DNA of 62,931 bases, the filler included, from Sphacelaria rigidula (lineage: Eukaryota), in the NCBI GenBank assembly GCA_964200075.2. It is 8 parts of 8 records of this genome, joined end to end, with 100 filler letters (N's around TTAATTAATTAA, not from the genome) between each part and the next. Parts side by side here need not be neighbours in the genome. Positions count along the whole stretch, not along the records: positions 23,640 to 31,418 come from CAXNAA020013482.1; 7 more parts are not named here. One strand, given 5' to 3'. The notes under the pieces are model-generated. The model was not told the DNA's origin and ran no database searches. It saw only the letters and a program-made list of their open reading frames with translations. Within the stretch, counting starts at the first letter, position 1; each line of letters begins with the position of its first letter. The position numbers and the translations under genes were made by a program. Shown here piece by piece: positions 54 to 43,214 of this stretch.

Positions 54-224
54 GATGAAATAGTCCCCATAAATAATTGTTCTTTAGGGGCTGCAACAAT
101 GTTGGACGGGTTGGGATAGGTTTTTGTTGTTATACTTTTGGAGAAGGGGGAGACAGAATACGGAACAAAGGCGCCGAAGCTCTTCTTTTCGTAGAGAGAT
201 GGTACTGCGGCGATCCGACACTTT

Positions 225-2580
225 CAACGATAGCCCCCCCCCCGTAACCAGCACAAAACTGTTCCGAATAAAATGGTCATACGGCGCCTGATGTTTGAGC
301 TCAGGCTGCATGAAGCGCCTCACGTGGGTGACATTTGCGAAAGCGAACCCAAGCGTGGGAATTACTAGCTGCTTGTTGAGCTCAGCTTTTTCCATTTCGA
401 TTCACGTGTAGATTTAGATTTTGCCTCCCAAACCAGCCACTCCTTGAAGGAGGGGGGGGGGGGGGGGGGGGGTTTACCCCCCCTTTTCTTCCTTTGTTTT
501 TTTTTTTTTCTACAAAAGAGGTTTTTACTCCCCAAAANNNNNNNNNNTTTGTTGGTCCTAACTTTTTCCATTTTCGTTCCAGGGGGATTTTTAGTTTTGC
601 CCCCAAAACCCCCCCCCCCTTGAGGGGGGGGGGGGGGGGGGGGGGGGGAGTGTCATCCCCCTTTTGCTCGCTAGTTTTTCTTTGTCTCGATAAAACAGGG
701 TCTTGACCCTCATAACGCCAGATCTCCTCTGGTGGACCGCAGGGTGACTGACCACTGTTCGGCAAAGGTCGGGATACTGTTTCCTACAGAGCCTGCCTCG
801 AGATATCGGCAAAACAAATCACGTTTGTACAGAACGCAGAGTAAAGTAGGAGCACCCCCACCGTTATTTCGGCTGCGACCGGTCCGCTGCTTCGTGCTCG
901 TTAGCATGACTGCTGTGGCGGACACATGGCGCATGGTGTGCATGTGTAGTTGAACGATGCTACACCCGTGCTGTGGGTAGTGGCAATGGCTCTGTCGGTG
1001 CGGCGTGTCGTCACACCTCTGATACTTCGGAGGCCTCTGTGCTTTCGACAAGGTCGCAGCGAATATAGCCAGTCTGTGATTCGAGATGGGCAGGGACTAG
1101 CTGCGCCAGGGAGTCAGCCGCAAGGAGCCTTAGTACTGCAAAACTGTGTTGTACGACACCACCCATCCCCACAGGCCTCGACGAACGCCGCGCCATGAAG
1201 TAAGTATACTAACTGTGGTACAGTTATCCACCGTCTCGTGGCAACATTTCAATACTTTCCTTCAAATTTACCCGCGCATGCCCTCGCATACAAGTCCGCT
1301 GCGGCTGCACCGACTGACTATGGTTGAATCACTGTCGGGCGGCGGAGGCTTTGGAAATGTACATGTTGGGCCCGAAACACAAGCGATCACTCGATTTCAG
1401 CGATAATGCCAAAAGGTCCTATCTGGTCCTACTCTGACTATGAAGTAAACGGTTCATCTCCGATTATTTTGGGCATCGGAATAGGGTACTGCACATATAA
1501 TTTAATACCCCGAATGACACCCTCTTTTGAGAAAAAAAAAAAATTCCGCCGGATTGTCGGCCAGATGATTACACCGAAACGCTGCACGAGGCTCGGCGCT
1601 CGAAGGGTCTCGAGATACGGCCCATGGTACGATCAGAAGGGTGAGCCCAGGCTCACACGCAGCCGAGGGTTGTGTGCGTTGCTGCCCGTACGACAGCACC
1701 GTGCTGCACATCGTGTATGTTTTAAAGCTCATAGTGCAATGCAGTGTACGTACGATGCAACCACTAACGAGAGCACACGCGACGGCCAAGGTGGGTGTCA
1801 AATACGAAGCCCATGCAGGGTGTTGCTGTCCTTTGAGCAGCACGGTGACAGTGCCGACAGCAATACAACGCAGACACGGGTGGAGAAACTCGAGGTTTTT
1901 CACACGCGGGGAGGTATTCAACTCCCATCCGTCGGCAAAAATCGCCTATGCAGCCCAAGACAAGAGCTACACATGTCCGCGGGGAGATCTGAGGAGGATT
2001 CAAGCACTCAGAGATGGTTGACGGGGCCGGAGTGTCTCATCTTGTGGTCATGGGAAGGCCCGACCTAAAGTGACGAGTACGTACATACGTACTCGTACGT
2101 AGGTCCGAAAAAAAACGTTTTGTCGGGTTTCGCACTGTTCAACACAACAACACTTCTGCATGTTTTGTAAACGTCTGCTGACTGTCTTCGTTGTTGTTGC
2201 TATTGTTGTTGTTAATATGACTCTTGGAAAACTGCGTCTTTGGCCCCTCTTCATCGTTTAGCGCCAGGAGAAAGGACTTGCTCGGATTTGACAACCGGGA
2301 AGGACTTGCTACACTCCTTGGCATGGTTCCAGGGTACCTTTGATGCCGCGATAGCCTTCCCGAGAAAGGCGGCTGGTATGAGGAGATGGAATTTCAAAGT
2401 GAATCAAAATGACAGAGCCGAGCAAACCGAGCAGCTGGGAACTCCCACGCTTGGGATCGTCTTCGCCAATGTCGCCGATGTCAGGCGCTTCATGCCATCT
2501 GAAATCAGCCACCATGCGCCATATGGACATTTCTTTCGTGACAGTTTTGGGGCTGGTTTGTCGGAGGGAGGGGGGTTGGG
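225..2580. repeat. Long degenerate palindrome P1, centre ~1325
   Basis: Inverted matches: 255-395 with 2410-2547; CAGATCTCC (~720) with GGAGATCTG (~1983); GTGCTCGTTAG (~894) with CTAACGAGAGCAC (~1764); TCACACCTCTGAT (1011) with ATCAGAAGGGTGA (~1632). Confidence 0.75.
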
Positions 2581-3329
2581 CGGGGGGGGGTTCCGACAGT
2601 ACTTCTTCGCTTTTCCGGTTACCGCAGGTAATTATTTCGGCCAAACTACCAAGTTCTTGGACAAACGGTCGAACTCCATTAAAAAAAAACGATTTTGTTG
2701 GTGCGTTTTCATGCGGATTGGACTTTGTTTTCGGCAACTAGAGCGGAAAATCGTCAATCCGCTCCAAGATCAAACTTCATGTACCGGAAAACACTAAAAT
2801 GTGCCGAAGTTCAGTCGGATCCGTGTTGAATACAAATATTTCGAGGTGGAAGAATTCGCCGATCTCTTTTCTCAGGCGAAAAACGTCCGGGAAGGGTCAA
2901 AAAGGCACTTATCCGAGAGATTCCCGTGACAGGATCGTGAGCAGCGACCTTATTTCCGTCACGCTCCACTTGTTGTGTTGAGGTGCAGGGGTTGTGGCTA
3001 CCAAGAAGGAGTTAGCCAACATCGGCATACGTACTGACACCAAGAATATATCACAGCAGACCGTTTCTCGTGAGAGCAACTTTTTCTTCATCAAAAAAAG
3101 ATCTGGGAAGGCACTTTTGAAGTCCTTGACTGGCACAATAGTAGGTTCAATGTCATACACAATTTCGACCCACAGTTTGTTCCCAGGGGATATTTGGTTC
3201 CCGTTTTCCAGGATCGCCTGTTTGTACGTCCTTCGCCTGTGTTCTAAGCGTGGAAAGACGACCCGACGACTACCGCCATCTCGGATAGACTTACTCACTT
3301 GCAGTCGAAAGGGATACTCATACGCTTCG

Positions 3330-19800: not shown

Positions 19801-22268
19801 ATGTGAACCATACAAGATTAACCTTGAACCTCAAGATAGAAGCTACTTACGTCCCCATTTCGTAGACCATTTTTTTTATCTTGATACGAAAAAAAAAAAA
19901 AAAACATGGAGAGAAAAGAAGCACACAATGTGTTGGCCATCCTGCACGTAAGACACGTCATCTCATCATACAAATACATTTACTCTTCCGTAACTGCACC
20001 AACCCCTCCCCACACGGGGCTGTGATTCGAACTCCTCGTTCGTTTCACTCCTTTCCCACCTAACCCATACCCTGTCAAGGGAGGGATCGTGAGTATTCGA
20101 GGCATCTCAAACTCGGCTCCCGGTATCCTGGTTTATTCGCTGGCTCTGCGTTGTGTACTACTTTTTCAAGTGAAAGTGATCGCGATTCATAGAAGGACCT
20201 GACCTGGCAGTGAAGGGGTCTCATCATCTCATGAATCGCCATCCACTTTCACTCGAAAAAATGGTGCACAACAAACCAGGATACCGGGAGTCGACTCTGA
20301 GATACCTCGATTACAACGCTCACTCATTCCATTGTTCTCGTACCCCCAAATACCCCGCCCTTACTCATCCTGCAAAGGCGTGAGCAGGCGCCTAATCAGT
20401 TTGCTACGAATACATCATGACACCATCACGCTTGCTCCAGCTTGCGGACCACAGGCAATGAAGCGCCTTCAGCACGTACACTGCAGAACAGTTTTGACAT
20501 ATAGAGTGCGCACATCCTTCCCTCCCGGGTGCTCCATCTCGCAAGGGTTGCGTGGCCAATGGTCAAGCGACTAAGGCAAGCAACAAATGAGTACCCCCCC
20601 CTCAACCCTCCCGTCCCTATTTCTTGGTCGAGTTGTGTTTAGCGAATAGGTAATACATAGATATACAACTAATCAATTTATTGGTTGGTTGGTTTAATTT
20701 TTTTTTGAACAGGAGAAAAAAAAAACAATTTATAAGATATATAATTGATTCATTCATTGATTGGTTGTTGGGTGGTTGATTGAATTTTATTTTTTGGGCA
20801 AGGGAAGGACAATATGTCCGTTTTGTTCAGCGAATGTTTCCTCGGAAAATTTGTCTACCGTGTGACCACGGATGGATTTGCAGTGGGTCAGTTAATGTCA
20901 GTTGGTGTGCGACTGACTGTCAGTCAAGTCAATCCTTAAAAATCGCGTGAATGCATGGAGCATGGAAACACAACCGCAACAGCGCCACGTGGAATCTAAA
21001 ACCGTTTCATCCACCACACGGGAAATCTCTGGAGAAAAACGTAAAAAATCGTAGCTATTCTTTGCCGTATGTATGTGTGCTGAGGCTTCAAGACAAGCTC
21101 AACAAGATGCCTGGGTGACCGACCGGCGGACTCTGCTACTCCTTTCACCAATTATGTGGAAGAACACGAGCTTGTGACAGCGGTTGCCGAAAAAAGTCAT
21201 GAAAAATATATCCCTTCTTCCTTGTTTTTCATCACAAAACGCTGAAAACATATTGAGGGAAAATCTGCTCTGAAATTTCATATCAAAAACTAGGATTACA
21301 TCCCACAAAATCACTTGGAAAAAAAAAGAAGCCATCTATGGCTTTAACTTCGCCGCCTTTGCTGTGCTTGATGGGGGTCTCAAAAGTCACGAATCTCGAG
21401 TGCTGCAGGTACCGCCGCTTTCCAAAAGTTCCATCAGCAATGTCATCAGTATAAAATCAACCACAAGAAACACTGAGAATGAATCTCTTGCACTATCCAC
21501 TCATTCTTGTTCGTGTAATATTTTAGTTCCGAACAAACGGACCCGACACACCCGTAGATACATGTGTTTTTCTCCAGAGCTGGCTACAGTACCACGACTC
21601 GATGTATCTCCCACACGAGCCATACGGCACTTTTCTTTCAGTCACATTGAAAAAATAGTCAACTCAAGAGTTTATTTTACTGAACGTCCTAAAAAAACGT
21701 ATTTCGTTTCTTCCTTCTGCTGAACACGTTCCCTTGTCCCCCCCCCCCACCCCTTTTTTCTAGTCTTCCATCAAACACATCTGTCTTGCTAACAAACCCC
21801 CAAAATAACAGAACAACATGTGGACAAAAGAATTAAAAACAAAAAAACGGATTTTTCTCATCAATGCATGGCCCCCATACCCCACGCATTTCCTTTTTTT
21901 TAGTTATCTCCTGTTTTGTTCTACATTTTCTGTTTTTTATTTTTTTTCTTCGGCGAGTGCTTCAGTTTTGTTTTGTGTCGGGTACATCTGTCATGTTGGA
22001 TAATGACCACGGCTGGATCACGACTTCTGGGGAGTCAGTTCAAGTGCGAGAATCGATCAATCATTTCGGCTCTCATTCATCGGAGGCATTTTTTTTCTCA
22101 ACGACCGCAATACAAGCGACTCACGAGTTGTGCTCTGAAGGCCCTGAATTTCTTGGTGACCTCATTCGGCTCCACGGCCTCCTTTCCGCGCACCTTCGGC
22201 AGGGTTTTTAGGCGTTCAAACGCCTCATCCGAGTGGAACGCCGCCATAACGTCCGTCGCGTCACGTTC
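16862..22268 (-). CDS. Cytochrome b5-fused front-end fatty acid desaturase, internal part; exons 22268-22125, 19659-19475, 18649-18526, 17020-16862
   Basis: In-frame GT-AG joins give ERDATDVMAAFH (end of cyt b5 domain), His box 1 GWYAHDMVH, His box 2 WWSEKHNLHH, then TNVVGVDEDIM/VEPALWLWAPD...FQH. Both ends are missing. Confidence 0.9.
20097..20310. mobile_element. Foldback/MITE-like hairpin in a desaturase intron
   Basis: TCGAGGCATCTC...CTCCCGGTATCCTGGTTT pairs with AAACCAGGATACCGGGAG...GAGATACCTCGA. Inner AGTGAAAGTG...GCGATTCAT pairs with ATGAATCGC...CACTTTCACT. Confidence 0.75.
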
Positions 22269-25184
22269 CTGGAACAGGACACATATTCACACATTCACAC
22301 GGAAATAGTGGGGAAGAGGGGCCCAAACATGAAAAAAATGTCATTTGTTCCACCCTTCGACCGCCCTGAGCAACCAACTCCCGCTGTTGAATTGACATCA
22401 CTTTGAGCCCCCCCTTGAGCGCTCACAATCAATCAATCAATGGTCGAACGACCAAGGCAAGCAACAAATGAGTACGCCCCCTTGAGCGCTCATGACCCAG
22501 CAGGATGATTTCTTCTTCCTCCGCCGGAGGTTCGAAATCCTCGTCTTTGGCGGAACAGACAACCCCTTCACGTAAAAGAGGGTTCGGGAATGCCAGGCCA
22601 TTGCCACGCCCATAGTTCGTGTCATTTTCCATTCATGTTTGCAGACCACCAGTAGCTGCTCTACAATCGTGCCGTGACTCTGCTGTCGGAAGCGTCAACG
22701 ACAACATTAGCGGGATTTTGTACGAAGGCGTGCAGGGCGCCGCCGCCAACTCGCTCGCTGTGAGTAAGTATTGCATGACACGCAACAAGCTGGACTGCAA
22801 CAATCCACCTTGGCTGCTCACACCGCTTCAAAAGTCTACTGCGATGCTTTCGGTCCGAAAGTAAAAAATACGGGAAAAAAGTTTCAGCGCCCGGATGTCC
22901 TCCTAGGTCTCCCTCGTCTACAAAATTGCCATCCTCCACTGGATTGTCAGGACTCGGAGCAGGCAGCGGGCAGCGATATGATTAATTGAAAATACTTGTC
23001 ACACTAGAGTGTCTCATCGAAGCGGCTTCATGTGAAACGTATCGTAGTCGTCCTCCGACATGTCCCATAGGTGCCTGTGCAGGAATAATTTCCCAGAAAT
23101 GCCATGTATTGTCACTATGGTATTCATCTTCCAGCACATGCAATCCACATCAATGAGCGCGAGTTTTATCCATTACAGCTTTCATGTGCGAATACTTCTG
23201 CAGTACAATGGAAATACTATATGATGGGTGGAATTCAGCTCATATGCTTTTGGTACTTTGATATTCGTGCCTCCATATGTGTGACCTGGGCAGCGTTCAT
23301 GAATGTGCGACGGACAAAATCAAACCATCAATCGCTCGGCGTTGCTAACTAATCCTTCGAACACCTATACACGCGCAGCAAATCACGTCATGCCAAAATC
23401 AACTGATGCGGACACACAATCGCACCGGATCATGACTTCTGCACATGGGGGGTGAGTTGAAGCGCTTGAAAAAAACACGAAAAAGGGGGGGGGGGGGGTC
23501 CTCATGATTATGCATGCCATAGTCATAAGACCATTGCCCNNNNNNNNNNNNNNNNNNNNNNNNNNNNNNNNNNNNNNNNNNNNTTAATTAATTAANNNNN
23601 NNNNNNNNNNNNNNNNNNNNNNNNNNNNNNNNNNNNNNNAAACGCATTGGATCGCCGCAACTGCAGCGTCGACACATAGCTTCGGCTTCAACCCACACAC
23701 ACATCAACTTTCAGCTCCGTCAGACGCCAGGTGTGCGGTGTTGGGGCGCCTATTTTCCAAAAATACCGCCTCCATGTTATTGAAAAGGAATAACACTGTA
23801 CCAAATACGTGATACGTTATACGTGACAGCAGGGTCCGAGAAGTCGAAGGGCTACCTCTGCGCTACTGTGATCCGCGTGCTCGGCGTTCAGCACTGAAGG
23901 GAGCAAATACGGGAAAATGGTCCTACTAAGCTCCACCATGATCCGGATAAGTGCACCCACAACAAGTGAATATTGAGATGCCATGAGCTGTCAGATATAC
24001 GGACATTTTCCTTTTCCAGCAGTATGACAGTACAGTCCTGCGCCAAAACAATAACAAAAAACAAAACCTACCGGAATGTCCGCTCTACACGTGTGAATGC
24101 CCGCACTTGGTTCCCATACAAAAATCATTGCACTTTCGAGGGGGAACTTCGCTTGTTAATTCCTCGACCGTGGGTAAAGCCACCCCCACGAAACTTGCTG
24201 CACTACACTAATTCGACACAACACAGGCAGTGTGTGCATTGGAGAGGAGCTCCTTTCGGCCACCGAGAAAATGCATCCAAGCGAATTCCGATATCCCGTC
24301 GATAGGGCCTCACAGAGGCTATATCGCAGCCCAGATTATGTGCACTGAGTGAAGACGTAGGTGGACATGGTGCACTCAGTTTCACGTCATGAGCACCCGG
24401 GAGAGCGCAGTGTCGGCAAACATAGACTAGTTGTGGCACACCCTCTTGATAATGACAAGATGTATAAAAGTCATGCCGGTGTCGCCTGTATAGATGCTCA
24501 GTGGGAGAGTCACACTCGTACACGCCCTGTCGAAGCTGCAAGACACTGACACTCCGGTTACATGTTATGTAAACCACAAAAAAACAAACCCATGTGTCTG
24601 GATTTGACGTTGGGCGTTGCAACAGTCAGAGCGCGAGGGTATAAAAAAAACTTAGATTATGTTCCTGATTTATCCGTCTTTTTCTACGCAGGACTTGTGA
24701 TGGCTGCGTGCCTACACTTCTGTACACAATATCGTACACATTCAGAGCACGTAATTTTTCCCTTCTCTCCCTGCTCTGCTGCACCCCTTTCCTTTTTTCA
24801 GTATCTACTTTCTTTTTCGTACTCCTCTCGCTTGTCATGTTTGTTGAACACGATTGCGGCAAAGCTTCTCTAGCTTGCTCTTCTCCTCCACCCACCCCTA
24901 CTCGTACGCATTTCCTGCGTTCCATTAGTTGAGCCAGAATCTGAACGTGTTCGGAATTCAGCAGCTCAGGTTTCGAGAGTTGTGTGGGGAACATTTCGTG
25001 CGTGGAACCTGGGGAGCGTAGAGAAACAAATCGCGAGAACTTCGGTACGTTATCCGCTGGACGACTGTTTTTTGGTGTCTCAACACTTCAGTATTAACAA
25101 ACCTCCGTAAGTGACGAGATACACTCGACATTGCGTGCGAATTAACGAGAAGACAGTAGAGTTCAAGGTTGTGTGCTGTAACGT

Positions 25185-25546: not shown

Positions 25547-26789
25547 ATTATCTATGATCATCACCCCTGTAGTGGGCCCTACGTCACTACAACAGGGGCG
25601 AAATACAGAAGATGACAGTTCACGAAAACTCTGAACGGCTTCACGGGGTGGATAGAGAAAGACTACACGAACAATTGCAGCAGTACATGTGCATGGGATC
25701 GTCAACATCTACCGGCTTCACGTACGCTCCCAGAAAGTACACAAAGGAGCATTCACGGCTGTCCGTTTTCTGGAAGCCCTTCGGCATGCGACAAAATCGC
25801 CGACGGCCTTGACGACTTCCGGTGGCAGCTCATTCTCTGTGCTGTACGTGCGGATAACGACCTGGGGTTTGATGACCACGACACAACCACCATCAACGTC
25901 GATGACATGCGTCTTCCTATTTGATCCCCTGGTGCCGCAGATAAACCGTCCCCGCTCGAGCCACCACTCGAGTCTGGGGGTGATCCATTCCGACGTTTTG
26001 CAGTGCTGCTCACGTTTCGTGTTTTCACTCAGCGATACGTCGTATCCCGCCAGATCCCAAACTCAAGAACTTTTCAACATTGAACTTTTGTTGGTGTGCA
26101 GTTTTGAATGAAGGAGTTGGGTGGGTTGATCGAGGGGAGGTACATGTCCAGGTGATGAGGTTGTGTTTGGATTGAACCTATATCCGCGGGTCCTCAAGGT
26201 ATATACCTGTGCTCATACCTGCAATCGGGTATATCTCTAACGGTATACCCTAACCCCGGGTAGAGGTATGGGAGGCTTACAGAGCTCACAGAACTCTCGG
26301 ACACCGGTATGGGAGGCTTACAGAAAACCGGCACCGGCGATCGAGTGACCTTCAAGAGCATACTCGCACTCCGGGTTCGGGTGGAAATTCTGTGCAGAAC
26401 TCACAGACCTGTCGGGTAAGGGTATGGGAGGCCTGCAGAACTCACAGAAACTGTCGGGTAGGGTATGGATGTTGCACAGAAAACCGTACCCGCAATCAGG
26501 TCTCTTATCAAGAGCATACCCGTGCCCTCTGGTAACGGTTCAGAGGTATGAATGAGATTACACAACTATCGGTTCAAGGTATGAAAGGCTTACAGAGATT
26601 ACAGAACTGTTGGGTACCGGTATGAAAGTCTTACAGAAGTCACACAACTGTCGGGTACGGTAATTACCCGGCAAAATGCCCCGGGTATATAGAAACCCGT
26701 ACCCTTCAGAACACAACCTTGGTACAGTTGACCAGGCTGTTGAAGAGATGGTGAAAATTACGGCCCAGTTTATCGGCATCGATGAGATA

Positions 26790-29700
26790 CGGTTGTGACA
26801 AGCGTGAATCCGTTTTTTCGTTGCCCCAACCAGCAGGGTGGATATTGGTACTCATCGCCTACTTCGAAGTACATTATTGACATACTGTATCATGCTTTCT
26901 CCTCTCCCCCGTGTTCCTCCGAGTCAATGTACACACCACACACCCTCACAAACTATGCCACGGCAACAACAGCTTGAGGCAATTCAACAAGTACTCGTAC
27001 ACCCTCACTAAAAACACCAAGCCGCTCACATTTCTCACTAAATTAATAGCGGAGTGTCTCCACATGCATGTACTACGAGTAGCTGTCGACGTGATCACGA
27101 TTTATGTCGCTCTCTACAGTACCGGGGAGAGATGGGTTGATCTCTTGAAGCTAGTAGACCACGGACTCGTCCCGAGGAAGGGGATGGGTAAGCGACAAAA
27201 ACACGAAACAGAAGGAATCTTTGGATTGACTGTCTCGAAGCGGCAATGCCGCTGGTCGCGGCTAGCACACGAACACCTCTGACGCGCAGCCCATGCATGC
27301 ATGGGAGCACCCTCTTTCCGACAGCCGCTGTATTGCCACCAAACAACGCTTTGAACCCCAAGCGAGGAACAATGAAAACAAATGGCCTACACTCCTGCAT
27401 AGACACCCCAAAGGATCAACCCTTTCACGGCTGGCGAATCATCTGGGTCTTCCACTCATCTTCATTTTGAAAGAAAAAAGAAGGCGGTGCACGTACCGAA
27501 ATGAACGGATGTTTTTCTTTCATTTGGTGGGGCCTAGCTAGCCACTCAACGTAGCACACAGTAGAAGCCCTCACACCGCAACCCTCGACCTACGATACAG
27601 ACCGTACCCACCCACTACGCGACGGAAGAAAAAACAAAAAAGGAAACACGAGGCAAGGAGAAAGGTGGGAGGCAGATGGGGTATCTGAGTATTTCCAGCA
27701 GAAACGTCACCCTTGGTTCTAGGCACGCCGCGACAGCCAACCAGGCAACAGTACCGCACTAGCACACCGACAGTACATAGTCGCGCATCAGCAGGCGGCG
27801 AACAAGGATAAGAATGCAGCCATCTCACGAAACACACTTGTGCGCAGAGCACCGCACCCGGTGGCAAAGTGCTTACAGCACAGTAAAATGGTACAGGGCA
27901 ACAGTACAGCACAGCACAGTACAACGTCGCCCAGTAGCATACGGCGAGAAATGATAACAGCCCAGCCTACCACACTACGCAACACATGAGTGCACTGAAT
28001 ACCGCAGTCGCTGGCAAGGCGCTTATTAATAGTTGGTCCGTGACGCACATCTGGTACTCAAGAATACGGGGAAATACATCGCGTTTCACTGGCGCAGTGA
28101 GCAGTGACCAACTCGCGACACTTGATGGATGAGAGCTCCAGCCTTGGCTTGATCGAAATTTACGGCAGTAGAAGCATCAAAGCCATTGTCTATACGAAGA
28201 CAATACCCCCATCCACACATTCCGATAAGCGGGGTCTTGCAGGAGACTGCGTGATCAGTAATTTACTTCCCAAGAATATCAAGGCCAAAGGGCTCGATGG
28301 CGAAGCATGTTGTTATGCATCTGGTACAACAGTATATACAGTACAGTACAGCACGGTGCGGTACGCTGAAACGGAAAGCGAGGTATATTTGTCCGACGTT
28401 TCCACGCTCAGTCACAACCCTACACTCACCATGGGCCACAATGCTGGTGTTCCTGCCATCGCTTGACATGTCCTTCCTTTGATACCTGCACCGCACCACA
28501 CTACAGCAAGTACACCGGACCACAGTTCACTACGGTGTAGTGTCCTTCAGCAGCAATCGATGCGTGATGTTCCTCGATACAGCACGGTAGTCGCGTTTCC
28601 CTCGTTCAGCGGCAGAACTACAGAACAATTTCAAAGAGAGCTGGTTGCTGGGGAAAATGGCGATCGAAGGAGTTTTCAAGTGCTGTCACTTTGCCTGTAA
28701 TGTGGTGCACTGGGCTAACTGCCACCCGGACTCGACTCTGGAGGTTAAACTGGAGATGCGCTGTACAGTGCTGAGGCAAGTGTAACAGCCCCTCGATGAT
28801 CATCCAAGTCCACAGAAGTGGTCCGTTGTTTCGTATGTTATGATGGTGATGGGGCACATGAACATATAGCGTCTAGAGCATGACGAAGAAAGGAGGCGTT
28901 TTGTGTTCCAAACGGGGCAACAATTGTGAAACCGTTACTTTCTAGAGTGCAAGACACGGGTATACAACACAATGCCCACTAGCTACATCCGACAGGTCGT
29001 GTTAACGGACGTTGTAGTGTGGGCTACATAGACGTGTCAGGGAGATACAGACCGTTTCGTCGCCCGGGAGGCCACGTAGATGGGAGATGCATTATTGTGC
29101 GCACCCTTCACCCGCCGTCGTGCAGCTACTATACGTGTTCCTCCACAAATTGCTTGACCGAATGATGTCGGGGGCACAACCCGACATACGGTCCTTGTTC
29201 TGTGTTGGCGGGTGTAGCGTACTGCGTCATCAGTAAGGGGGTGATGATGACACTTGCGCTTGTAGCCGCCATCCTTTCTAGTTGTAGCGCAATCGTCTCC
29301 GCAGTAATTCATATACTGTCTGTGGCTACCGCGTGGTTCAGTGTTGTTACCTTTTACGTGTCCCGGGAGCAGCAGCAGAAACGCATACCGCTTGGGTATA
29401 CACTGTATACAATTACTACCGTCGAGGCGCCTTCACCGTTTTGTCGTAGTTATTATACTGTGTACAGACTACTGTTTGTATTAGAATATAAACATACGTT
29501 ATGATGCAAATGGAAGATAATAAATTATATTCAGGGTTTCAGGCGCGGAAGATGGTCCTGGCTGTAAGGTGACAATATCCAAGCGAGGGTGGCTCGCCTG
29601 GAGCAAGCGCCGACGCGCCTGTCTTCGGCTGTGGCCATCGAGGGAAACATGTCACAAAAGTACTCATGTAGTTCAGGCCCAATGTAGACAGTATAAAGGC

Positions 29701-30160
29701 ATGGTCATGCAGCAAGATATCTTGGTAGCACGCAATCTACAGGTGTACTACCGAACGGCAGTAGCACGAGTCGGCTCGCAAGGCGCCGGCGCCCCGCTCG
29801 GCCGTGTACCGAAGGAATGGGCAGCACGTCACTGTGCAGTACTGTAGGAGTAGCCTGATACGGGACTTGTACCACCATGCTGTATGTTGCATACCCAAGG
29901 TGCATGCCTCAGTGTATAAGATGTGCGTTGAACAGAACGCCGATGTACAACTGCAGAACGGCAATAGCACGGCTCGGCCCGAAAGGCGACGGCAGCCCGC
30001 CCGGCCGTGCAGCCAGAAAACAGGCAGGACGCCACCGTGCAGTACTGTAGGAGTAGCCTGATACGGGACTTGTACCACCATGCGGTATGTTGCATACACA
30101 AGGAGTATGCCTCGATGTACAACAGGTGCATTGCACAGAATGCCGGTCGCAACAAGAGAT
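26790..30160. repeat. ~3.4-kb degenerate palindrome, centre ~28500
   Basis: CTACAGTAC/GTACTGTAG, CCTCGAC/GTCGAGG, GCCAAC/GTTGGC, AATGCA.CCATCT/AGATGG..TGCATT, CCACACTAC/GTAGTGTGG and CGCTGAA/TTCAGCG. Confidence 0.75.
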
Positions 30161-30743
30161 AGGGTTACCATATATATCCCGAGGGCCCCCACCAACTAAA
30201 CCCCAAGAGCCGTGCCCCCCCCAGCAACTGTAGTCGGAAAAATGAAAACCCTCATTTTTATTATGGTGATTCTTCCCGTAGTCCCACTGGCGTAGATAAG
30301 AGGGACGGGGAGCTGCGGTTCCTACGCTATTTTGATGGGGCCCCTTTTATATCCCGGTACCTTCCAAGGGTTCCATCCTGCCTGCTGTTGTGGATGGTAC
30401 TACTTTCAGATATACTCCGTACATGGTAGCATATATATAGTGTATATGGTCTATCAAGGGTCTGTCGAGAGAAGTTTTCGGACACGAAGCCCCTCCCCTC
30501 TCCCTTTGGCACTTTTTATGATACCCCCTCCCCCCACAAACACCAGCCCGAAACTGTCACGAAGAAAAGGTTCATACAGCATCTGATGTCTGGTTTCTGG
30601 CGGCTTGAAGCGCCTCGTACGGGCGACAGTGGCGAAAACGAACGCGAGGGTGAGGATTCCGACCTGCTCGTTGTGCTCAGCTTTTCCCCACTCGATTTAC
30701 GTGTAGATTTTGCTTCCCCAAACCAGCCATTTCGTTTTTTTTT

Positions 30744-30935
30744 TGGGGGGGGGTGTACTCATGATCATGCATGCCATAGTCATAAGGTCATTGACCTCGC
30801 ATTCCTACTGCCGGGTTTTCGCCGGACCAGGCTCGCACTCAATCACCAAGCGCGAAGCGCCGTGGTGTGTTCGGCGAGTCGCATGAGGGGTGAGCTACAT
30901 CCTGCTAAGATTGTTCCGCCCGAAGCGTACCGATT
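30744..30935 (+). repeat. Dispersed repeat family B (G-run GTACTCATGATCATGCATGCCATAGTCATAAGACCATTGACCTCGCATCCCTAC...GAGTCGCATGAAGGG); other copies ~13488-13615, 16045-16180, 23485-23539, 31250-31300, 39398-39455(-), 43820-43980(-), 57530-57675, 57842-57900
   Basis: Repeated matches across five contigs. Confidence 0.85.
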
Positions 30936-33063
30936 TATTTTGCATTTAGATGACAGCCTCCAATGGGTTGCTTTATTTTCTGGTATCGCCACTTCGTGAG
31001 ACAACCACGGCTTATACACTGCCTCATGGGTGCCTCACCTTTTGAACACTACGTGGTACGATCATCCCCATCGTGCGAAGTTGAGGTTCTCCCACGCCGC
31101 ACAACATGATCTAGCTCGACCACCATCACGGTTATACCGCAAAAAAAACGCAAGCGCGCAAATAAAAACGGCAACCTGGTTGCCTAGCTTCCGCCGTGAG
31201 TGGCGTGTTTTTTAGCGCCATCACCATCAGACGCCAATCCCATCGGGGGTCCGTCCCTACAAAGTCAGGACGGAGCACTCCGGGTTCTCCCCGGACCAGG
31301 ATGAACTTTGGGGAGGGGGCTATCGTAGAAAGAGTCCCCTCCCAGAGGGCAATTTGTCGAAAATGTTAATAAATTGTTTTATCGACATTGCTGAAAGAGT
31401 CATCCTACGATAGGGGGGNNNNNNNNNNNNNNNNNNNNNNNNNNNNNNNNNNNNNNNNNNNNTTAATTAATTAANNNNNNNNNNNNNNNNNNNNNNNNNN
31501 NNNNNNNNNNNNNNNNNNACCAATGTACCGCGCAGATATCGGAACGGCTTTTAATGTGAAGACAACAATAACAACAACAACAACAACCCTTTGATCGTTT
31601 GAGCCTCAAAGGCTGATCTCGCGAATGAATAGGACGAAACAACACAAGGAAGACACCTTGCGAAGGTCGAGTGTCAATCGGAGAAGAAAAAGATAGACGG
31701 ACATTGCCGCGGGGCTTCAGGTAAGGATCCTATGCAAAAACAACGAAATAAAAGCAAAAGAAAACAAGATCGCACGAGCAGATTGCGACTCAGCAATTCA
31801 AGGACGGCAGCATTTGGGCGCAAACTCTCATTTACGAAGTCGATAGGGGCCAGGCACAAAAACTGATGATACACCATGCAAAACAAACAAAACGAACAAA
31901 AATCAAAACAAAAGAAGATGGAAAAGAAGAAATAGCTATGAAGAGGGAAGTAACAAGAAATGAGAAATAAGGGAGAGGGTACGAAATAGAGGAAGGGCGT
32001 GAGGAAATCGAATCGGATACAAAGGAGAAGATGCACAAAAACAGAGCTACAGGAAACATCACCCAGCTTGTAAGCCGAAGAGAGAAACCACGATATAGCA
32101 AGACACCAATGATCTATCTAGGGTATCTCCCTTCATGTGGGATTTTCATGTGTGATGCCCATGTAGCATGTTCTCATCCACGTGGGATATGCACGTGTGA
32201 TTTCCATTTCGGATGTCCAGGTCCACGTGGAATATCCGACTGGGAACTCAAAACTATACATGTGTTCCGTTTGAAAAATTCAAACGGAGAAAATTGCAGG
32301 TTTTCGGCAGCCTTATCTGGATCAATCCGCCGACTGAAAAAAGTAGCGGATATCTGGATATCCTAATTGCAGGCGGATTTCAAGGAACACGAGCGATGGA
32401 CACTCGTCGACTCTCCCCACATGCACATTGCGCATGTCTGAAGGGGGTAGTGGGGTCTTGAATCACGTATCACGAATCAGATACACAAACCGAATGAAGA
32501 TTGAACGAAAAAGGTTTGTCGTCATTATTCACACATTGTGCCAGCGATGTGCAAGAATGAACGTATTTTTCATGACAAACCGGAAAAACCAAGTCCGACC
32601 ACGACATCCAACTTTCGTACAGTAAGTCCACTGTAAACCACAGCACGCATGTGATGTGCTCGATGACCAGCTGCTTCGGCTGCTTCGTCTCTTCCCGAGA
32701 AGACACAATGTACGACCTCACGCCCAACTACTCGTGGCAACAACTCTGTCGGTTTCTTTTCAATTGAGTACGGATTGAGTAAACTTCTCGGCCGCCTCCC
32801 AAGAACCCTTTAAAAACATAAGCGTCTCGAGCCGTTCCGGGTTGCGTCTGTTCCTTCATTGCGTCATAAGAAGCCCACTCTGCGAGAACACTCGCTCTGA
32901 GAGATCTGACGATGCCAGAACAGCCAGGGCGTTCCGAGCAATATGCGCAATGAGTGGGTACTTGTGCGCATTCAGCGCACACCACTTGAGCGGGTTCTCG
33001 TTGATGGGCAGAGCAGGTTACATTATGATGTCCAAAATATCAAGAAAATAAAAACAATATGTA

Positions 33064-33423: not shown

Positions 33424-36400
33424 CTGGCGGCACCAGAACAGAACTCAGGCAAGACGGGCCTTAGAAGGGAAAAATTGGAACGAGAACCGACTGCTTCCCG
33501 GCACCGGAAACACTAGGGTCCCCCAAGGAAAGCTGCAACAGGTGAAACGCATGGGTCATATGCATAATTATTCGAGTTGAGAGGTCATTGAAGTCATGTG
33601 TTTGGGTCAACGCAAAATTAGCCAACTCAAGGTGCATTTACATGTCACCCGTATGAACAACCAAAGAGCGGGACGCGAAGTAAGACTCCTCAAGGTGTGG
33701 TATATGTCACCTGTATGGCTAGTCAAACAGTGAAAACGCAAAATTAGTCTCGTCAGCGTGCATTATATGTCACCAGAATGGCTAATTTTGAACAGCGAAA
33801 CCACACCTATCAACCAACCTTTCGCCACCATCGCGCGAGATTTACGGCAATTAATCAAGCAGGCCGACCTCTGGAAACGCGGTGACTCGAAATAGTATTA
33901 ACAAATATGTCACCCAACCTGCGAATGCACGACCTTGTCATTCCCTACCAAGTAGCGAGCGAAAGAAGGAGGTGTATCGGATGGTCTTACCGCATCCCAG
34001 CCCACAAGCTGAGAAAAGTTGAAAAGTACAGTCAGTTCAAGATCCCACACCTCATCACGCATGAAAGGGAGAAAAGTATCAACCGTCTAGTGAAGAAACC
34101 AAATCGGGGGAATGCGGGTTTCTTGGTCAGTACGGTAACTCACTCCTCCAGAGGGGCACCAAAACAGCCCTCAGTTGTGGTGTGAAAGCACATACTATTA
34201 ACAGAAGCTGGAAAAGAGCACGATGAGAGTGGGTTCCTAAGCAGCCGTCAGAGCAGCCGTGGAAAACGTAATACACCACACCAAGGGCCATCATCATCGA
34301 AATTGAAGCTCAGCTCATTGAGGCTCTAATAATGCTACATTCGCCGCCGTACCCCAATGGATCGGTAACGTTACATTCCGCACTGACACATGTTCAACTA
34401 GCAGCAAGAGAAGCAGCGATGGTATAAGCAGGGGCTGTTGATTCAAAATCGAAACACCAGTCTCCCCTTTGCAACCCGATCTTGGACGATCACTGTCATG
34501 ACTCATACAACGCATCATCACCCTCCAGGTATACAGATGCGCCCCTAGCGCTATCCTGTGCATTAGCCCGCGTTAGAGTCACAGCCAGAGTAAACGGTAC
34601 CCTCGCTGAAAAAATCGCAACCGATTCCGCAGCAGATGTACCGTGTATCAGCAAAAGTTCATAGATGAACACCGGGTCATCATGGCAGCTGATGATATAA
34701 AACCAGTACCGCCAGGACCCATCGATCGCAGAAGCGCGGACGCTTTCTCCATAAAAATCCTAGGGTTCACTCATTTCGAGCTTACGTTTGGGATAAAAAC
34801 CCTGTCAACAGAAGCGTTTGTCTTACCTCATCTGAGACCGGATTGTCTATTACTAGACAACTCCATATGAGTGCTTTCAAAGCTATACTCTGTACTCGAG
34901 TGGCAGACGGAAGAACGAACATTCTGTGATTCCAGTATAAAAATCAAAGCATCGCATCAAAAACGGCAGGGCTCACAAAATACAACACACGGGAACAACA
35001 TACTGTTCCAAAGTCGGTGTGAAATGTTCTAACCCTGCTCCACTCTCTCACAAAAAATGCAGTTTGCCACCTCAAAGTGAAATGGCAGTACTAGTTGGAA
35101 CGGAAAAAATACCCCGTCAACAACAACAGCAGCTGACGTGGAGCCGCGCATAACAACCGAAAAAGACACTCGATCGCTTGATGTACCTCAAGCATTTACG
35201 CGCATCATTGTTTCAGGGACAGCATTCACGTAGTCGGCGACGAATAAAACGGAAATGGTACAAATCGCCAACCCATCGAGCCGACATGTAAGCCCCGGAA
35301 AAACTTTATGATAATGATAAGAGACAAAAACCGGAGAAACTTCATCTTATTCCGGACGTTCTCTCACGGCGGTTTGCGCTACTCCAAAGCGACGAGAAGC
35401 TGAAATCAAACCGCAGCTTGCCCAAATATGTGGTACCGTGTCAAAAAACCATGCGCTGCAAATAGCTGAACCATATATCACCGTCAAATATCAGCTAAGA
35501 AGCTCCACCGTTTGAAGCCAGTGCAAAGTGACCGAGAGCTGTCAGTCAACCAGCCAGAATATGCCGATGGGACACGTTCCGGTAGGACGGCCATACGAGA
35601 GAGTGTCAGCGAACCTAGTTAAATGCAAAGCAACTTCGACGTCAAACGCTGGAGTACTAGGTAAATATGAACTGTCCATATTGGATCACCTCACAAGATA
35701 TGCTTTGCTCATTCCGGTGCCGAAAAAACAGACATCAATATAGCCAAGACTCTTATTGACATGGTCTTTACTGCACTGGGTATCCCGGGAAAGCTGCCTT
35801 CGAAATAAAGAGCGGAATTTGAGAACAAGCTATTATACGCACTGCAACAGGAGTTAGGTTTCAATAAAACTCGCACGACACCGCTACGCCCGCAAGATAA
35901 TTCAGTGTCGGAACGAGTCCACTCCACTATGCACGTGATGTTAGCTATGCATATGTCAGTCGGGAAAACAACCGGGTATTCATCCTTCCATTCGTCCGAA
36001 TGGCGTACTGCACTTCTTATCACAATACCGTGCAAGAGACCGTATTTTTTGTTGTTCGGAAGACAGCCCAGATTACCAATTGACATTATACTCGACATAC
36101 GTGAAGAGAGCCAAGCAGCAACACCCGAAGAATTTTCCAAATAAACAAGGGAAAACCTACGTTTGGATTTGAAATTGCGAGACAAGCTCTACGAGAAGGA
36201 GCGAACGAGCAAAGAAGCAACAACAAATTGAAGCCGTTCCCAATGTTCAAACCCGGTCAAAAGGTATTCTTGTACCCACCATACCAGGACTCAGTAGGGC
36301 CGAACCCGAAACTTCAATCGCCATGGAGAGGATCTTTGATGATAACCGACAGACGATCGCCGGTTGTGTACATAATCAAAACATTTTAGGCGGCGACTCT

Positions 36401-38406
36401 AAAGAAACGCCAGTATATCTCGCTCATTTGAAGAAATATCACCCGCGAAAAACTGCGCCAGCACCGGACTTTGACAAGTTGAGCGAGTTGTTCGTGGCCA
36501 GACACATTCCTCTACCAGAAATAGACCAACCACACGGAACGTTACCCCCAATAGAACGCTGCACCGTTGAAAAATGGTAGGTCACGCGCCAGGCCCAGGT
36601 CGGAGAAGTCGTTACAACTATCAATGACTGTTGACACTCCAGGGCTACGGCCCAGCGGTTGACCTGACCAACCGGGCGAACTAAATACCACAACAATTCA
36701 TCGATGAATACCGTCATGACAAGGGGTTTTCTGAATGCTCACATCCGGGCTCGGAATTAAAACTGCAGGAAACGGAAACGGATGTGGCTGTTCAAGAGAC
36801 TGTTTGAGCATCCTAGCAAAAACGCTCAAGGGTTGAGCAGTAGCCTGAGGTCAAAATTAGGAGGTTAATGAGACTCAAAAGCTACAGCCAGCAGCTGACC
36901 TAACCTATCGAGCGGACGAAATACCACAAGGTAGACACCTCCTCGATATATACCGTCATGACAACGGGTCAGCAAAGCGCTCACATCCGAAGTCGAAATC
37001 CGAAAATACCGGGTCACGGATGACTGTCCAACAGACTGTTCGGGCGTCCTAGCAAAACTCTCAAGGGTTGAGCAGTAGCCCGGGGTCACAATTCGGAGAT
37101 CAAGGAGAATCACAAAAACAAAACGAAAAAACGACGTTAGAACATTGCAGACATGAACGGAAACATATCTGACATGTCAACAGTGACTGGGGTGCAAGTT
37201 CCCAAGGAAGATAACCTCTCAGCAATCGGGGTAGTGCTGACAAACAAAAAATATGTTGATGATTTTTAGACAAAAACGTCATCGGGCACCATCGCTGAAA
37301 GTGTGGAGAAAGCACTGTTTTAGGCTTGAATCTCATCTCGGAGTTAAACCTCAATCCGCACAATTTGTTGTTGTATCCACCGCTTTGTTACCAACACGAG
37401 GACGTTGTACTATTTCGGTGTCAGCGGAACCGAAGGTATCCCAGAACCCGGACATGAAAACCCACGCGCCCGTGAACCGATCAGTGTCGCAGTGCCCAAG
37501 CATGTAGAAACAGCAGATGCATCCAGCATCAAAGTGCAACGCATATTGTGGAAATAGATCACATGGGACACACTTATATGCCACGAAATGGTACGAAGCA
37601 AAGAAGATGTCGATGTTTCACCAAAGAGCACAATGCTCGCAAGATAAACATCAGACCCACCACTTTGGTACTAACGCAAGGACTTTGTCCTATTCTCCGG
37701 TGTCAGTGGAACCGAAGGCATCCCAGAACTCGGGCAGGAATACCTCAAGCGCCCGTGGACCGGTCGGTGGCCCAGTACCTCATCAGGTATACCTAACTGA
37801 TGCAGCCTGCACCAAAGTGCAAAAGCATCCCATAAAAAAGGTGTCACATATGATGCAGTTATTTGACACAGCACAAGAAGCAAGGGTCATTTTGACGGTG
37901 TTTAGCCAAAAGAGCGCAATACTCACACGTAATATGTATATATATATATATATATACCTTCTACACCGCCGTGTTACTAACCCGATGACTCAGCCCTACT
38001 CCGGTGTCCGCGGAACCAAAGGCATCCCAGAACCCGGGCAGGAATAATCCAGGCGCCCGTGGACCTATCAGTGTCCCAGTGCCCAATCATGCATACCAGC
38101 AGAGGTAACCAGCACCCAAGTGCAAATACGTATGATGGAATCATGTCACATATGACAGCTACAGAAAAAAGAGGGTTTAGAGTACATGCACCGTTACTGA
38201 CCAAAGGTAGCTGAAATGTTCCGGGGGTAATTACTCAATACCACAGTATGGAAAAGGGCTACTTTTGCGATTAGTGGTGGCGTGACTCAATCAATGATTG
38301 TCACTCGAAGAAACCTCCACGAGTATATCATCAGCGAAGCTGATGATCGCCTCGTCCCACTAGCCATAGCCTCTATGGGCTTGAGGCGCATAAAGGGGGG
38401 AGGAGG

Positions 38407-38758
38407 TGTGGACGATACCTCTTTGCAGTGGAAATATCAGAGACTGATGCCACACATGTATGAATGACCAGCGCAAGCATGGACAAGGTAAAAACGGTCC
38501 GGAAGGATCAGATTACCGACGACCCTGCAATGCCGACGTAACTAGACAACTCGGGGTGATGCCAGGAAGAACCTAATATTGGGACAGTCCAACATCCCTC
38601 GAGGTCCTGGTCGCCCCTGGCGACCACTTCTAGTCTAATCCCACTTCTTGCCTACATATACAAGAGGAAATCATCGCCAGCCTCGGAGTTCCTTCGGCAT
38701 GAGGACGGCAGTCTCCCCCGTAGGTCTCTGGCTTCTCTAGCGATACCCCTTTGTCACA
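38407..38758 (+). repeat. 3' LTR
   Basis: TGTGGACGATACC...GTCACA, preceded by the polypurine tract. Confidence 0.92.
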
Positions 38759-39692
38759 CACATATATATATATATACCGCGGAATTCGTTTTAGAGGGAG
38801 CGACTTAGGATTGGGGTCAAACGAGAAGGATATCCGGAGTGGACAGAGCGGAGCAAATCTACTATACTCAAATCAAATTCCTGTCTGGGATCTCACATCG
38901 ATCGACAACATGCATCTCGGATCTCACATCTCCGAGCGACAACATCCGCCCAGGATATTTTGCGTCTGTATCAGGGATCAGGGCTAGGGGGTTATCGTTA
39001 AAGTCCAAGTTAGCGTATAGCGTCAAGTGTTTCAGGTGGGTATTGACATCTCGAACAGGTGGGCATCCGTCTAGCATATTCCAGTATAAAACAACAAATT
39101 GTGCGAAGTGAGGTTTAACTCCAAGATGAGATTCAAGCCTAAAACAGTGCTTTTCCCACACTTTCAGCGATGGTGCCCAATCACGTTTTTGTCGGCCTAA
39201 TGCCCCTCAAAAATGGGAGGAATATATCAGGGGAAATGACGGTTTCAGTCAGCGCTGTAAGCTCACAGAGTCGGTGAATTGCGCTGAAGAAGTATCTNNN
39301 NNNNNNNNNNNNNNNNNNNNNNNNNNNNNNNNNNNNNNNNNTTAATTAATTAANNNNNNNNNNNNNNNNNNNNNNNNNNNNNNNNNNNNNNNNNNNNGGG
39401 ATGCGAGGTCAATGGTCTTACGACTATGGCATGCATGATCATGAGTACACCCCCTCCCCCATGTCGCCCCATATCGCCCATGCTTGAATTTGGGTTCGGA
39501 TTTGCTGTTTTCAAGTGGCACAAGACGCCTGTTTATCTCAATATGTGGATGTTACAGGACGCCTGTTCTTGTGGAAACTAGTGCACGAGCGCTCCTGACC
39601 GTTTTTCTGGCCGAGCCATGTCGGTGTACGCTTCGGTATATATGCTGAGCAAGCTGGTACATGCTGCCATGCGCGAATAAGTACTCTATATT

Positions 39693-42230: not shown

Positions 42231-43214
42231 TTTCCATATCATCGCTTATCACACCCCCAAGTTGTCCCTTGGAACAGTCAGTCGGTGATGTTGTTCCGAA
42301 ACGAGGCCTGTCCCCCAAAATGACTAATTCACGAGCAACCGACAGTTTGATGTTTATCTGGACGTTTTCAACCACAAAATGGTACAGGGTGCACCGCTCA
42401 TAGGAAATGCCGAGATTCCCAGCAAGCTGGTGGGCCGAAACCGCCGCAGAGCTGTTGGCGGAAAAAGCGAATGTTATATCTAAAAAAAAATCCCCTCTAC
42501 AAAGTGTACCTGAACTTCGAAAAGTATTCGAATCCGGCGGGTAATTGTGTGCATTCGTGAAAAATCGCAAGCAGGTGAACGGAGAACGTTTCAGGTACAC
42601 CTGTCGTCTGAGTTTTCAAATAGATCCGAATCTGGCGGAAATGTACACTTGTCTAGGTAGATTCCAAGGAGTTTCGAGTCAAGAAGTGTCGAATATCTCA
42701 TCGCCTTTTTCGCCATGAACAGTGATACGACTGTTTTGATCAATTATGTGTCTGCATATCGGGGTTGTCCATCAACGATAAATGTGTCGGGTACTGTATA
42801 TTCATCGTTTTTTTTGCCAACAAAAAATTTGCAGCGGTTTCGGTCAATTACTTGGCTGTATATCGACGTTGTCTGGTACCCTGTACCTGTTTGCGGCCGG
42901 AAAACGTCCGGGTATACCTCAAACTGTGGTCGCAACTTTTCCCGAGATATTGTTATTCCGTACCGCGGTCACCAGACACGAGAAACATTCAAGTACACAC
43001 AGCTTTTCGAAAAATAAACTTTTCTAATACGACCGTCACTCGTTTGAAACGATGATATGTTTCATTTCGGTCCGGTCCGGTTCGCTCCTTTGTCAATTTC
43101 AAAGACATTCGCACCAACACTTCGAAGATGAAACCCCAAGATATTCATAGTTTTTCTTGCGTGAATGTTGTTGGTTCCGGGGGTGGGGGGTGTTGGGTAC
43201 CGTATTCAAATCAG

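What the first reader, a model, noticed from the sequence alone, without database searches (positions are those of the whole stretch)
30515..30730. Outer end of palindrome P1 recurs in another contig: candidate conserved terminus
The 225-440 sequence (AAACTGTT..TCATAC..CTGATGT..GAAGCGCCTC..GCTCAGCTTTT..CGTGTAGATTT..CCAAACCAGCCA) has an inverted copy at ~2400-2580 and a third copy at 30515-30730, about 350 bp beyond the 26.8-30.2 kb palindrome. The three copies align without indels over ~140 bp and share an open frame: EKAELNKQLVIPTLGFAFANV..VRRF, DRAEQTEQLGTPTLGIVFANV..VRRF and GKAEHNEQVGILTLAFVFATV..TRRF. About half of the differences between the first two fall at third positions by my count, which is suggestive only. 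This supports a mobile-family origin for at least some palindromes.
Basis: partly seen in the sequence, partly recalled or inferred. Interest (0 to 1): 0.7.

Follow-up and report, generated by a model that had tools for sequence, protein, structure and literature searches.

The report
Miniature jumping DNA in brown alga
The repeated 250-letter stretch is a small jumping element that encodes nothing and is present in thousands of copies in this seaweed-type genome; it is ordinary, and the large mirror-image structure it was said to border is not there.

Summary
The three copies are real (74-76% alike), but neither 26.8-30.2 kb nor 440-2400 is a palindrome (scores equal shuffles). Each copy is a separate insertion of a ~250-bp miniature inverted-repeat transposon (MITE 'A'): terminal repeats GACACTTTCTACGATAG-(C)n, 4-bp target duplications of free sequence (12 of 25 exact against 0.56 shuffled), 2,216 exact end matches in the genome. 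Copy 1 is complete, with an ATCC duplication; copy 3 is complete but split by a ~560-bp insert in its G-run. The peptide frame is not under selection (pN/pS 0.81; 0.75-1.04 across all six frames); its 278 database relatives look like false gene calls on copies. A Sola2-type transposase lies on 34 contigs. One family of it, ~18-22 kb pieced from several copies, ends in GACTCCTGCCGAGATAG-(C)n, and a MITE with those ends is homologous to A inside. A's ends match it at only 11 of 17 bases, so the exact partner was not found. Verdict: mobile origin right, 'palindrome terminus' and coding reading wrong. New member of a known kind; interest 0.22.

The parts
213..216 (+). Left target-site duplication of copy 1 (ATCC)
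   Evidence: repeated at 655-658
217..654 (+). MITE A copy 1. Left TIR 217-233 (1 mismatch of 17), C-run, ~190-bp core, long G-run, TIR end AGTGTC at 649-654. True length probably ~250 bp: 373-521 and 549-699 are two versions of the same stretch either side of a 10-N gap (inferred assembly fault after poly-G).
   Evidence: 85% to family consensus
655..658 (+). Right target-site duplication of copy 1 (ATCC)
2338..2590 (-). MITE A copy 2, old (77% to consensus), inverted to copy 1. Its end at 2338-2354 is closer to the Sola2 family S1 TIR (11 of 17) than to the A TIR (8 of 17); other end decayed, outer limit approximate; no target duplication read.
30508..31336 (+). MITE A copy 3, whole: left TIR 30508-30524 (4 mismatches), core to ~30745, right TIR 31320-31336 (1 mismatch). 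Flanks CTTT / CCCT match at only 2 of 4.
   Evidence: 83.5% to consensus
30746..31308 (-). ~560-bp insert 'B' in the G-run of copy 3, between near-identical TTTGGGG(G/A)GGGG stretches; read as a non-autonomous RTE-X-like retroelement with a (C)n 3' end (inferred by likeness to a published description, no sequence comparison)
   Evidence: public-run contigs join 30729 to 31312/31315 without it; PMC12477816 supplement rows
31397..31418 (+). End of sister MITE 'A2' (GAGTCATCCTACGATAG-Gn), cut by the contig end
26800..30200 (.). The claimed palindrome: not present. 29424-30493 belongs to a separate ~1.07-kb dispersed repeat with an inner tandem duplication at 29747-30145.

Best explanation
The repeat is a ~250-bp non-autonomous cut-and-paste DNA transposon (MITE A) of a brown-alga-type genome. 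Shown: it has ~25-bp terminal inverted repeats (17 bp plus a C-run), duplicates 4 target bases of free sequence, is dispersed in more than a thousand copies about 9% from their consensus, and encodes nothing under selection. Inferred: a Sola2-type DDE transposase made by a larger element bound those ends in trans, cut the MITE out and inserted it with a 4-base stagger; MITE A descends from a sibling of the ~18-22 kb Sola2 family S1 found here. The window copies are three independent insertions of different age; copy 3 later took a retroelement into its G-run. Odds: MITE 0.95; Sola2 as mobiliser about 0.75.
For: TIRs and sharp ends in an alignment of 30 loci. 4-bp TSD exact in 12 of 25, at most one mismatch in 19 of 25, against 0.56 and 2.2 in shuffled pairings, no signal at 2, 3 or 5-9 bp; second sample 7 of 15 exact, 12 of 15 within one. 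Empty site: L180 holds A between GCAT and GCCT, its paralogue L181 has one GCCT and no MITE. 2,216 exact 17-mer matches, reversed control 0; 28 of 29 sampled ends lead into the A core. Sola2-type transposase: 43 matches on 34 contigs, motif order matching the published Sola2 alignment by eye. S1 3' end fixed by three transposase-bearing copies with unrelated flanks: GACTCCTGCCGAGATAG-(C)n; the same TIR starts five 5' arms tied to S1 by two bridging contigs. MITE A4 with the S1 TIR and 4-bp TSDs is homologous to A inside (score 54, shuffled maximum 33, 0 of 300). A's 5' subterminal 25 bp match S1's (8.4 against 3.5 +/- 0.2). Older A-like copies carry S1-like ends (13 of 17 in 4 of 5 arms). PMC3627910 (passage) and PMC12477816 (supplement row) give 4-bp TSDs for Sola2.
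Against: A and S1 TIRs agree at only 11 of 17, and 6 of the first 11, which fails the Repbase rule of at most one mismatch in positions 1-11 (PMC4455052 passage). A's 3' subterminal part does not match S1's (2.0 against 2.4 shuffled). No transposase-bearing element with the exact A TIR as its own end was seen in the 22 Sola2 contigs read (the one exact match is a nested MITE). Copy 3's flanks match at 2 of 4. Ectocarpus Sola2-1 has GGCGG ends, not GAC. The transposase label rests on motifs read by eye; Pfam gave nothing meaningful, a search of longer proteins gave 0 of 433 candidates, and the Atlas returned a DUF7869-bearing cluster (21% of members), which here also marks the Sola1-like elements. 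Other superfamilies with 4-bp TSDs were not searched.
Confidence: 0.75

Rival explanations
1. One reading: the sequence is the conserved, protein-coding terminus of larger palindromic mobile elements.
For: Copies 1 and 2 face each other 2 kb apart; 3 of 29 other loci hold an inverted pair of copies, and 9 of 29 hold some other inverted repeat of 80 bp or more within 1.5 kb (no matched background, so a mild excess is not excluded); an A-like segment sits 270-500 bp inside the 5' end of the long S1 element in 5 of 5 arms; third-position excess between copies 1 and 2 (p 0.044).
Confidence: 0.03
2. MITE as described, but moved by another superfamily that leaves 4-bp duplications (Sola1, or Ginger-, Academ-, Chapaev- or non-TTAA Kolobok/piggyBac-like; this list is recalled).
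For: No exact TIR partner found. Sola1-like DUF7869 elements are abundant (79 matches) and Ectocarpus Sola1 also leaves 4 bp.
Against: The DUF7869 families whose ends could be read start AACAG/AACAAG, like Ectocarpus Sola1 (AACCG), and share nothing with A; TSDs are not TTAA; A shares end layout and inner sequence with the S1/A4 group.
Confidence: 0.18
3. The core is a captured or relict piece of a real protein gene (transposase or host), now decaying inside the MITE.
For: A 52-codon stop-free stretch from an ATG in the consensus; 278 predicted proteins match its profile.
Against: The 150 listed hits are 42-239 aa; 7 of 15 read continue through the TIR as YRR(K/N/R) into unrelated sequence; 9 of 10 clusters looked up are singletons, the tenth has two members; no Pfam match; the opposite strand has an even longer open frame.
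Confidence: 0.08

Closest known systems
Sola2 DNA transposons (Sola superfamily); Sola2-1_Ec32 of Ectocarpus (PMC12477816, supplement row: 4.6 kb, 26-bp imperfect TIR, 4-bp TSD)
   Same: 4-bp TSD, ~25-bp TIR, and a transposase in the same genome with the Sola2 motif order.
   Different: Ends are GAC.. not GGCGG; MITE A has no gene; the related family S1 is ~18-22 kb, far longer than the 4.6-kb Ectocarpus element; no Sola2 MITE appears in the supplement rows I read.
Ectocarpus MITEs such as TcMar-N1_Ec32 (217 bp; PMC12477816 passage)
   Same: Short, TIR-bounded, non-coding, far more numerous than the autonomous partner.
   Different: Those are Mariner-type with TA duplications; A duplicates 4 free bases.
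Sola1-1_Ec32 (21.5-kb giant Sola1, AACCG ends, 282-bp TIR, 4-bp TSD)
   Same: Giant size with fixed nested insertions, like S1; 4-bp TSD.
   Different: Different ends and TIR length; the Sola1-like families here start AACAG and are unrelated to A.
RTEX-N1_Ec32 (~600-bp non-autonomous RTE-X retroelement, C-rich target)
   Same: Insert B is ~560 bp, has one fixed end at a G/C run (45 of 50 ends have 6 or more G in the 12 bases before) and long duplications (14-15 bp in L208).
   Different: No sequence comparison was possible (the paper's FASTA files could not be read), so this is likeness only.

Membership tests
MITE (non-autonomous TIR transposon) | Short, with terminal inverted repeats | tested here: met
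   248-280 bp in 23 of 25 two-ended rows; 17-bp TIR plus C-run
MITE (non-autonomous TIR transposon) | Target-site duplication of fixed length | tested here: met
   4 bp: 12 of 25 and 7 of 15 exact; one empty site
MITE (non-autonomous TIR transposon) | High copy number, dispersed | tested here: met
   2,216 exact end matches; 2,931 first-look candidates, 40 scored
MITE (non-autonomous TIR transposon) | No coding capacity under selection | tested here: met
   pN/pS 0.75-1.04 in six frames over 32 copies; no Pfam match
Sola2 | 4-bp TSD | tested here: met
   feature stated in PMC3627910
Sola2 | Ends match an autonomous member at positions 1-11 with at most one mismatch (Repbase rule, PMC4455052) | tested here: not met
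   6 of 11 against S1; so A is not filed as a formal member, only as working like one
Sola2 | 5'-GRG terminus (recalled; the source paper was not held) | tested here: not met
   A and S1 start GAC; sister A2 starts GAG
Sola2 | Sola2-type transposase on a related element | tested here: inconclusive
   Motif-for-motif likeness by eye to the published alignment; no scored comparison with a named Sola2 protein; related but not identical ends
Sola1 | Ends shared with the Sola1-like (DUF7869) elements of this genome | tested here: not met
   AACAG/AACAAG ends in the two families whose ends were read; no A-like sequence in 20 loci
Kolobok / piggyBac / Sola3 | TTAA target | tested here: not met
   TSD bases are mixed at all four positions; the TTAA rule for these is and recall
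Ginger, Academ, Chapaev | Cognate transposase with matching ends | not tested
   No search for these was run
RTE-X non-autonomous retroelement (insert B) | 3' end homology to an autonomous RTE-X | not tested
   Only length, G/C-run end and long duplications were seen

The most novel reading that the evidence does not exclude
This genome holds a giant (~18-22 kb) Sola2 family and a clan of at least three ~250-bp MITE families (A, A2, A4) whose TIRs share a GA(C/G)-N9-GATAG-(C or G)n frame while the middle bases have drifted apart, a natural series for how one transposase lineage and its binding sites diverge; the MITEs' G-runs in turn seed thousands of landing sites for a G/C-run-targeting retroelement, so one mobile family spreads the target of another.
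Probability: 0.45. Interest if true: 0.4.

Novelty: new member of a known kind. Interest (0 to 1): 0.22.

Why it matters
Modestly. It removes a false lead (no palindrome, no conserved peptide). It adds a large MITE family and a probable giant Sola2 family to the thin record of brown algal transposons. It also warns that at least 278 protein clusters in public collections, one of them an NCBI-listed Sphacelaria rigidula protein, look like false gene calls on this MITE.

Tried and rejected
Palindrome tests by k-mer, local and global alignment: nothing above shuffles. Rfam 0 matches, ARAGORN 0 genes in the window, so no tRNA-headed SINE. Pfam on four translations of the repeat: 0. Sola1-like DUF7869 elements as partner: rejected on their ends. 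An automatic TIR-pair scan on 20 DUF7869 contigs found none, and one on 12 Sola2 contigs gave only chance pairs; contigs are shorter than the elements. A against A2 inner sequence: not above shuffles. A 3' subterminal against S1 3': not above shuffles. Search for longer homologues of the transposase piece: 0 of 433 candidates, weak evidence. Sequencing runs: no RNA holder listed, which says nothing on expression; only contigs could be laid. Earlier findings of the scan: none in three look-ups. Paper searches: 0 papers for brown algae + MITE + TIR + TSD, 0 for Sola2 + GRG + 4-bp, 1 for Sola2 + brown alga; some searches gave 8, 5, 4 and 2 listings. The original Sola paper was not held. The contigs bridging the two halves of S1 are known by match coordinates only; their DNA was not read.

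Full report
Setting. The window is eight contigs of about 7.8 kb joined by N44-TTAATTAATTAA-N44 linkers, from a 244-Mb assembly in 27,214 contigs. The one named relative of the repeat's translation is a Sphacelaria rigidula protein, so I read the host as a brown alga (inference; the genome itself is not named).

Checking the observation. Self-BLAST gives three copies: 219-439 with 30510-30729 (74%), 246-405 with 2558-2399 inverted (76%), and 2416-2574 with 30682-30524 (75%). The peptides quoted are there. The palindromes are not. The two halves of 26,800-30,200 score 29 in a local inverted alignment against a shuffled maximum of 29, and -325 globally within shuffles of -292 to -339; 440-2400 scores -224 within -188 to -229. 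Only the two repeat copies pair in 225-2580. The DNA between them has no long second match in the genome (itself plus two short weak hits, whose search skips very common words). Just left of copy 3 lies a different ~1.07-kb dispersed repeat, 29424-30493.

What the repeat is. A search with 225-445 gave 2,931 first-look candidates, of which 40 were scored and 30 fetched. Their alignment has sharp ends: GACACTTTCTACGATAG and a C-run on the left, the mirror image on the right, unrelated flanks beyond. Of 32 rows (30 loci plus window copies 2 and 3), 25 had both ends within 5 mismatches of 17; 7 were dropped (L001, L005, L017, L018, L020, L025, copy 2). In those 25 the 4 flanking bases were identical on both sides in 12 and within one mismatch in 19, against 0.56 and 2.2 in shuffled pairings; no other length from 2 to 9 gave a signal, and the duplicated bases are mixed. 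The exact 17-mer occurs 2,216 times, the reversed control 0 times. In the first 30 of these loci, 28 of 29 scorable ends lead into the same core, and 7 of 15 complete elements have an exact 4-bp duplication, 12 of 15 within one mismatch. One empty site was seen: L180 holds the element between GCAT and GCCT, and its paralogue L181 has a single GCCT. This is a MITE.

The window copies. Copy 1 starts at 217 after ATCC and ends AGTGTC at 654 before ATCC; the stretch around the 10-N gap is present twice in degraded form, which I read as an assembly fault after poly-G. It is therefore a whole element, not the left end of something larger. Copy 2 is the oldest (77% to consensus) and has decayed ends. 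Copy 3 runs 30508-31336: its right TIR lies 560 bp further on than expected because an insert (B) sits in its G-run between near-identical TTTGGGG(G/A)GGGG stretches; its outer flanks match at only 2 of 4. Contigs of public runs join 30729 to 31312-31315 directly, as uninterrupted paralogues would. B-type ends follow a G-run in 45 of 50 cases (6 or more G in 12 bases), and one has a 14-15-bp duplication (L208). That fits the description of RTEX-N1 of Ectocarpus, ~600 bp with a C-rich target (PMC12477816: passages; supplement rows); I could not compare sequences.

The peptide. These copies were chosen by likeness to copy 1, which favours ones near the consensus. A profile of 12 translations found 278 proteins; the 150 listed are 42-239 aa. 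Of 15 read, 7 run through the TIR as YRR(K/N/R) into unrelated sequence; of 10 looked up, 9 are singleton clusters. I read them as gene calls on MITE copies.

The likely mobiliser. Sola1-like DUF7869 elements are common (79 matches), but the two families whose ends could be read start AACAG/AACAAG, like Ectocarpus Sola1-1 (AACCG), and 20 loci showed no likeness to A. A recalled motif pattern gave 3 matches, 2 of them in a transposase, which in turn has 43 matches on 34 contigs. Its motifs (ADFQERY..QDEVQ.QHWN..TTLFP, VLSDD, SDNCGKQFK, YFAACHGKS.SD.EGGVVK) follow the published Sola2 alignment in order (PMC3627910 supplement S10, part 1 of 2 read); this is by eye. In the largest family, S1, three transposase-bearing copies end at the same point with unrelated flanks, reading inward GACTCCTGCCGAGATAG-(C)n. 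That motif has 13 matches: 6 such 3' ends (one followed by a deletion), 5 starts of a long arm and 2 MITEs of ~265 bp (A4) with TCCG and AGCT duplications. Two contigs (C6157, C10337) hold the arm's inner part and S1's upstream part in the right order and strand, which gives 18.5-21.8 kb by adding coordinates from different copies; no single whole copy was read.

Links between A and S1. For: same GAC-N9-GATAG-(C)n layout and 4-bp duplication; A and A4 are homologous inside (54 against a shuffled maximum of 33, 0 of 300); A's 5' subterminal 25 bp match S1's 5' end (8.4 against 3.5 +/- 0.2); older A-like copies have S1-like ends (13 of 17 in 4 of 5 arms, 12 in the fifth; copy 2, 11 of 17). Against: A and S1 TIRs share only 11 of 17 bases and 6 of the first 11, failing the Repbase rule (PMC4455052 passage); the 3' subterminal parts do not match (2.0 against 2.4); no long element with the A TIR as its own end appeared in 22 Sola2 contigs, though most other Sola2 families' ends lie beyond their contigs. 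So A works like a Sola2 MITE and probably descends from a sibling of S1, but is not filed as a formal member.

Palindromes near copies. Ten of 29 loci hold an inverted repeat of 80 bp or more within 1.5 kb: three are pairs of MITE copies, nine hold some other inverted repeat (two loci have both); in L015 the MITE sits inside one arm. Short self-palindromes are also in the window away from copies (3979-4355, 20093-20314, 48306-48502). No matched background was computed, so a mild association is not excluded, but in none does the MITE form the outer end.

Novelty. MITEs and Sola2 are known, and Sola2 is recorded in Ectocarpus. The supplement table has no GACAC or GAGTC ends, and the searches found no account of such a family; the paper's FASTA supplements and subscription papers, including the original Sola paper, were not seen and may hold it. 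Verdict: new member of a known kind, interest 0.22; the boldest reading (giant Sola2 with a MITE clan that supplies targets to a retroelement) has probability 0.45 and would merit 0.4.

Noticed in passing
window:31397-31418; L081-L110: Sister MITE A2, ~250 bp, ends GAGTCATCCTACGATAG-(G)n, 1,485 exact end matches, 4-bp duplication exact in 4 of 8 complete copies, core unrelated to A. Many contigs break inside it.
   Followed up: partly
L172, L174, L176, L203-L207; G000 C6157, C10337: Probable giant Sola2 family S1 (~18-22 kb by coordinates, copies ~92% alike) carrying fixed nested MITEs and extra open frames of unknown kind in its 5' arm.
   Followed up: partly
L111-L130: At least five families of DUF7869 (Sola1-like) elements, 79 matches; two start AACAG/AACAAG GGATTCTAT.
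   Followed up: partly
window:12681-12791, 13485-13616, 13948-14030, 15805-16182, 16742-16818, 19034-19156, 20520-20621, 22436-22483, 23486-23539, 39398-39460, 43819-43979, 55154-55213, 57486-57900, 62548-62788: Two related G-run-anchored short repeat families (B type), about 13 ends in the window, often cut by contig ends.
   Followed up: partly
window:29424-30493: ~1.07-kb dispersed repeat (77-94% alike copies, over 30 contigs among 40 scored of 1,243 candidates) with an inner 200-bp tandem duplication.
   Followed up: no
window:37269-37376 and 39086-39193: 108-bp inverted repeat pair, 93% complementary, 1.7 kb apart; candidate TIR element.
   Followed up: no
window:33064-33424, 38407-38759, 35809-36577: 360-bp direct repeats (91%) around broken frames that look like an LTR-retrotransposon integrase region (likeness recalled; Pfam scanned only an opposite-strand frame, 0 hits).
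   Followed up: no
window:3979-4355, 20093-20314, 47843-48807: Real short imperfect palindromes (68-77%); similar 180-470-bp palindromes lie in several fetched loci.
   Followed up: no
window:25201-25547 and 26216-26724: Two clusters of short degenerate repeats of the type ACAGAACT..GTCGGGTACCGGTATG, 74% alike over 330 bp.
   Followed up: no
window:9459-10286, 18145-18729, 43056-43544: Exon-like pieces: fatty acid desaturase (two, below Pfam cut-off) and an Hsp70 domain.
   Followed up: no
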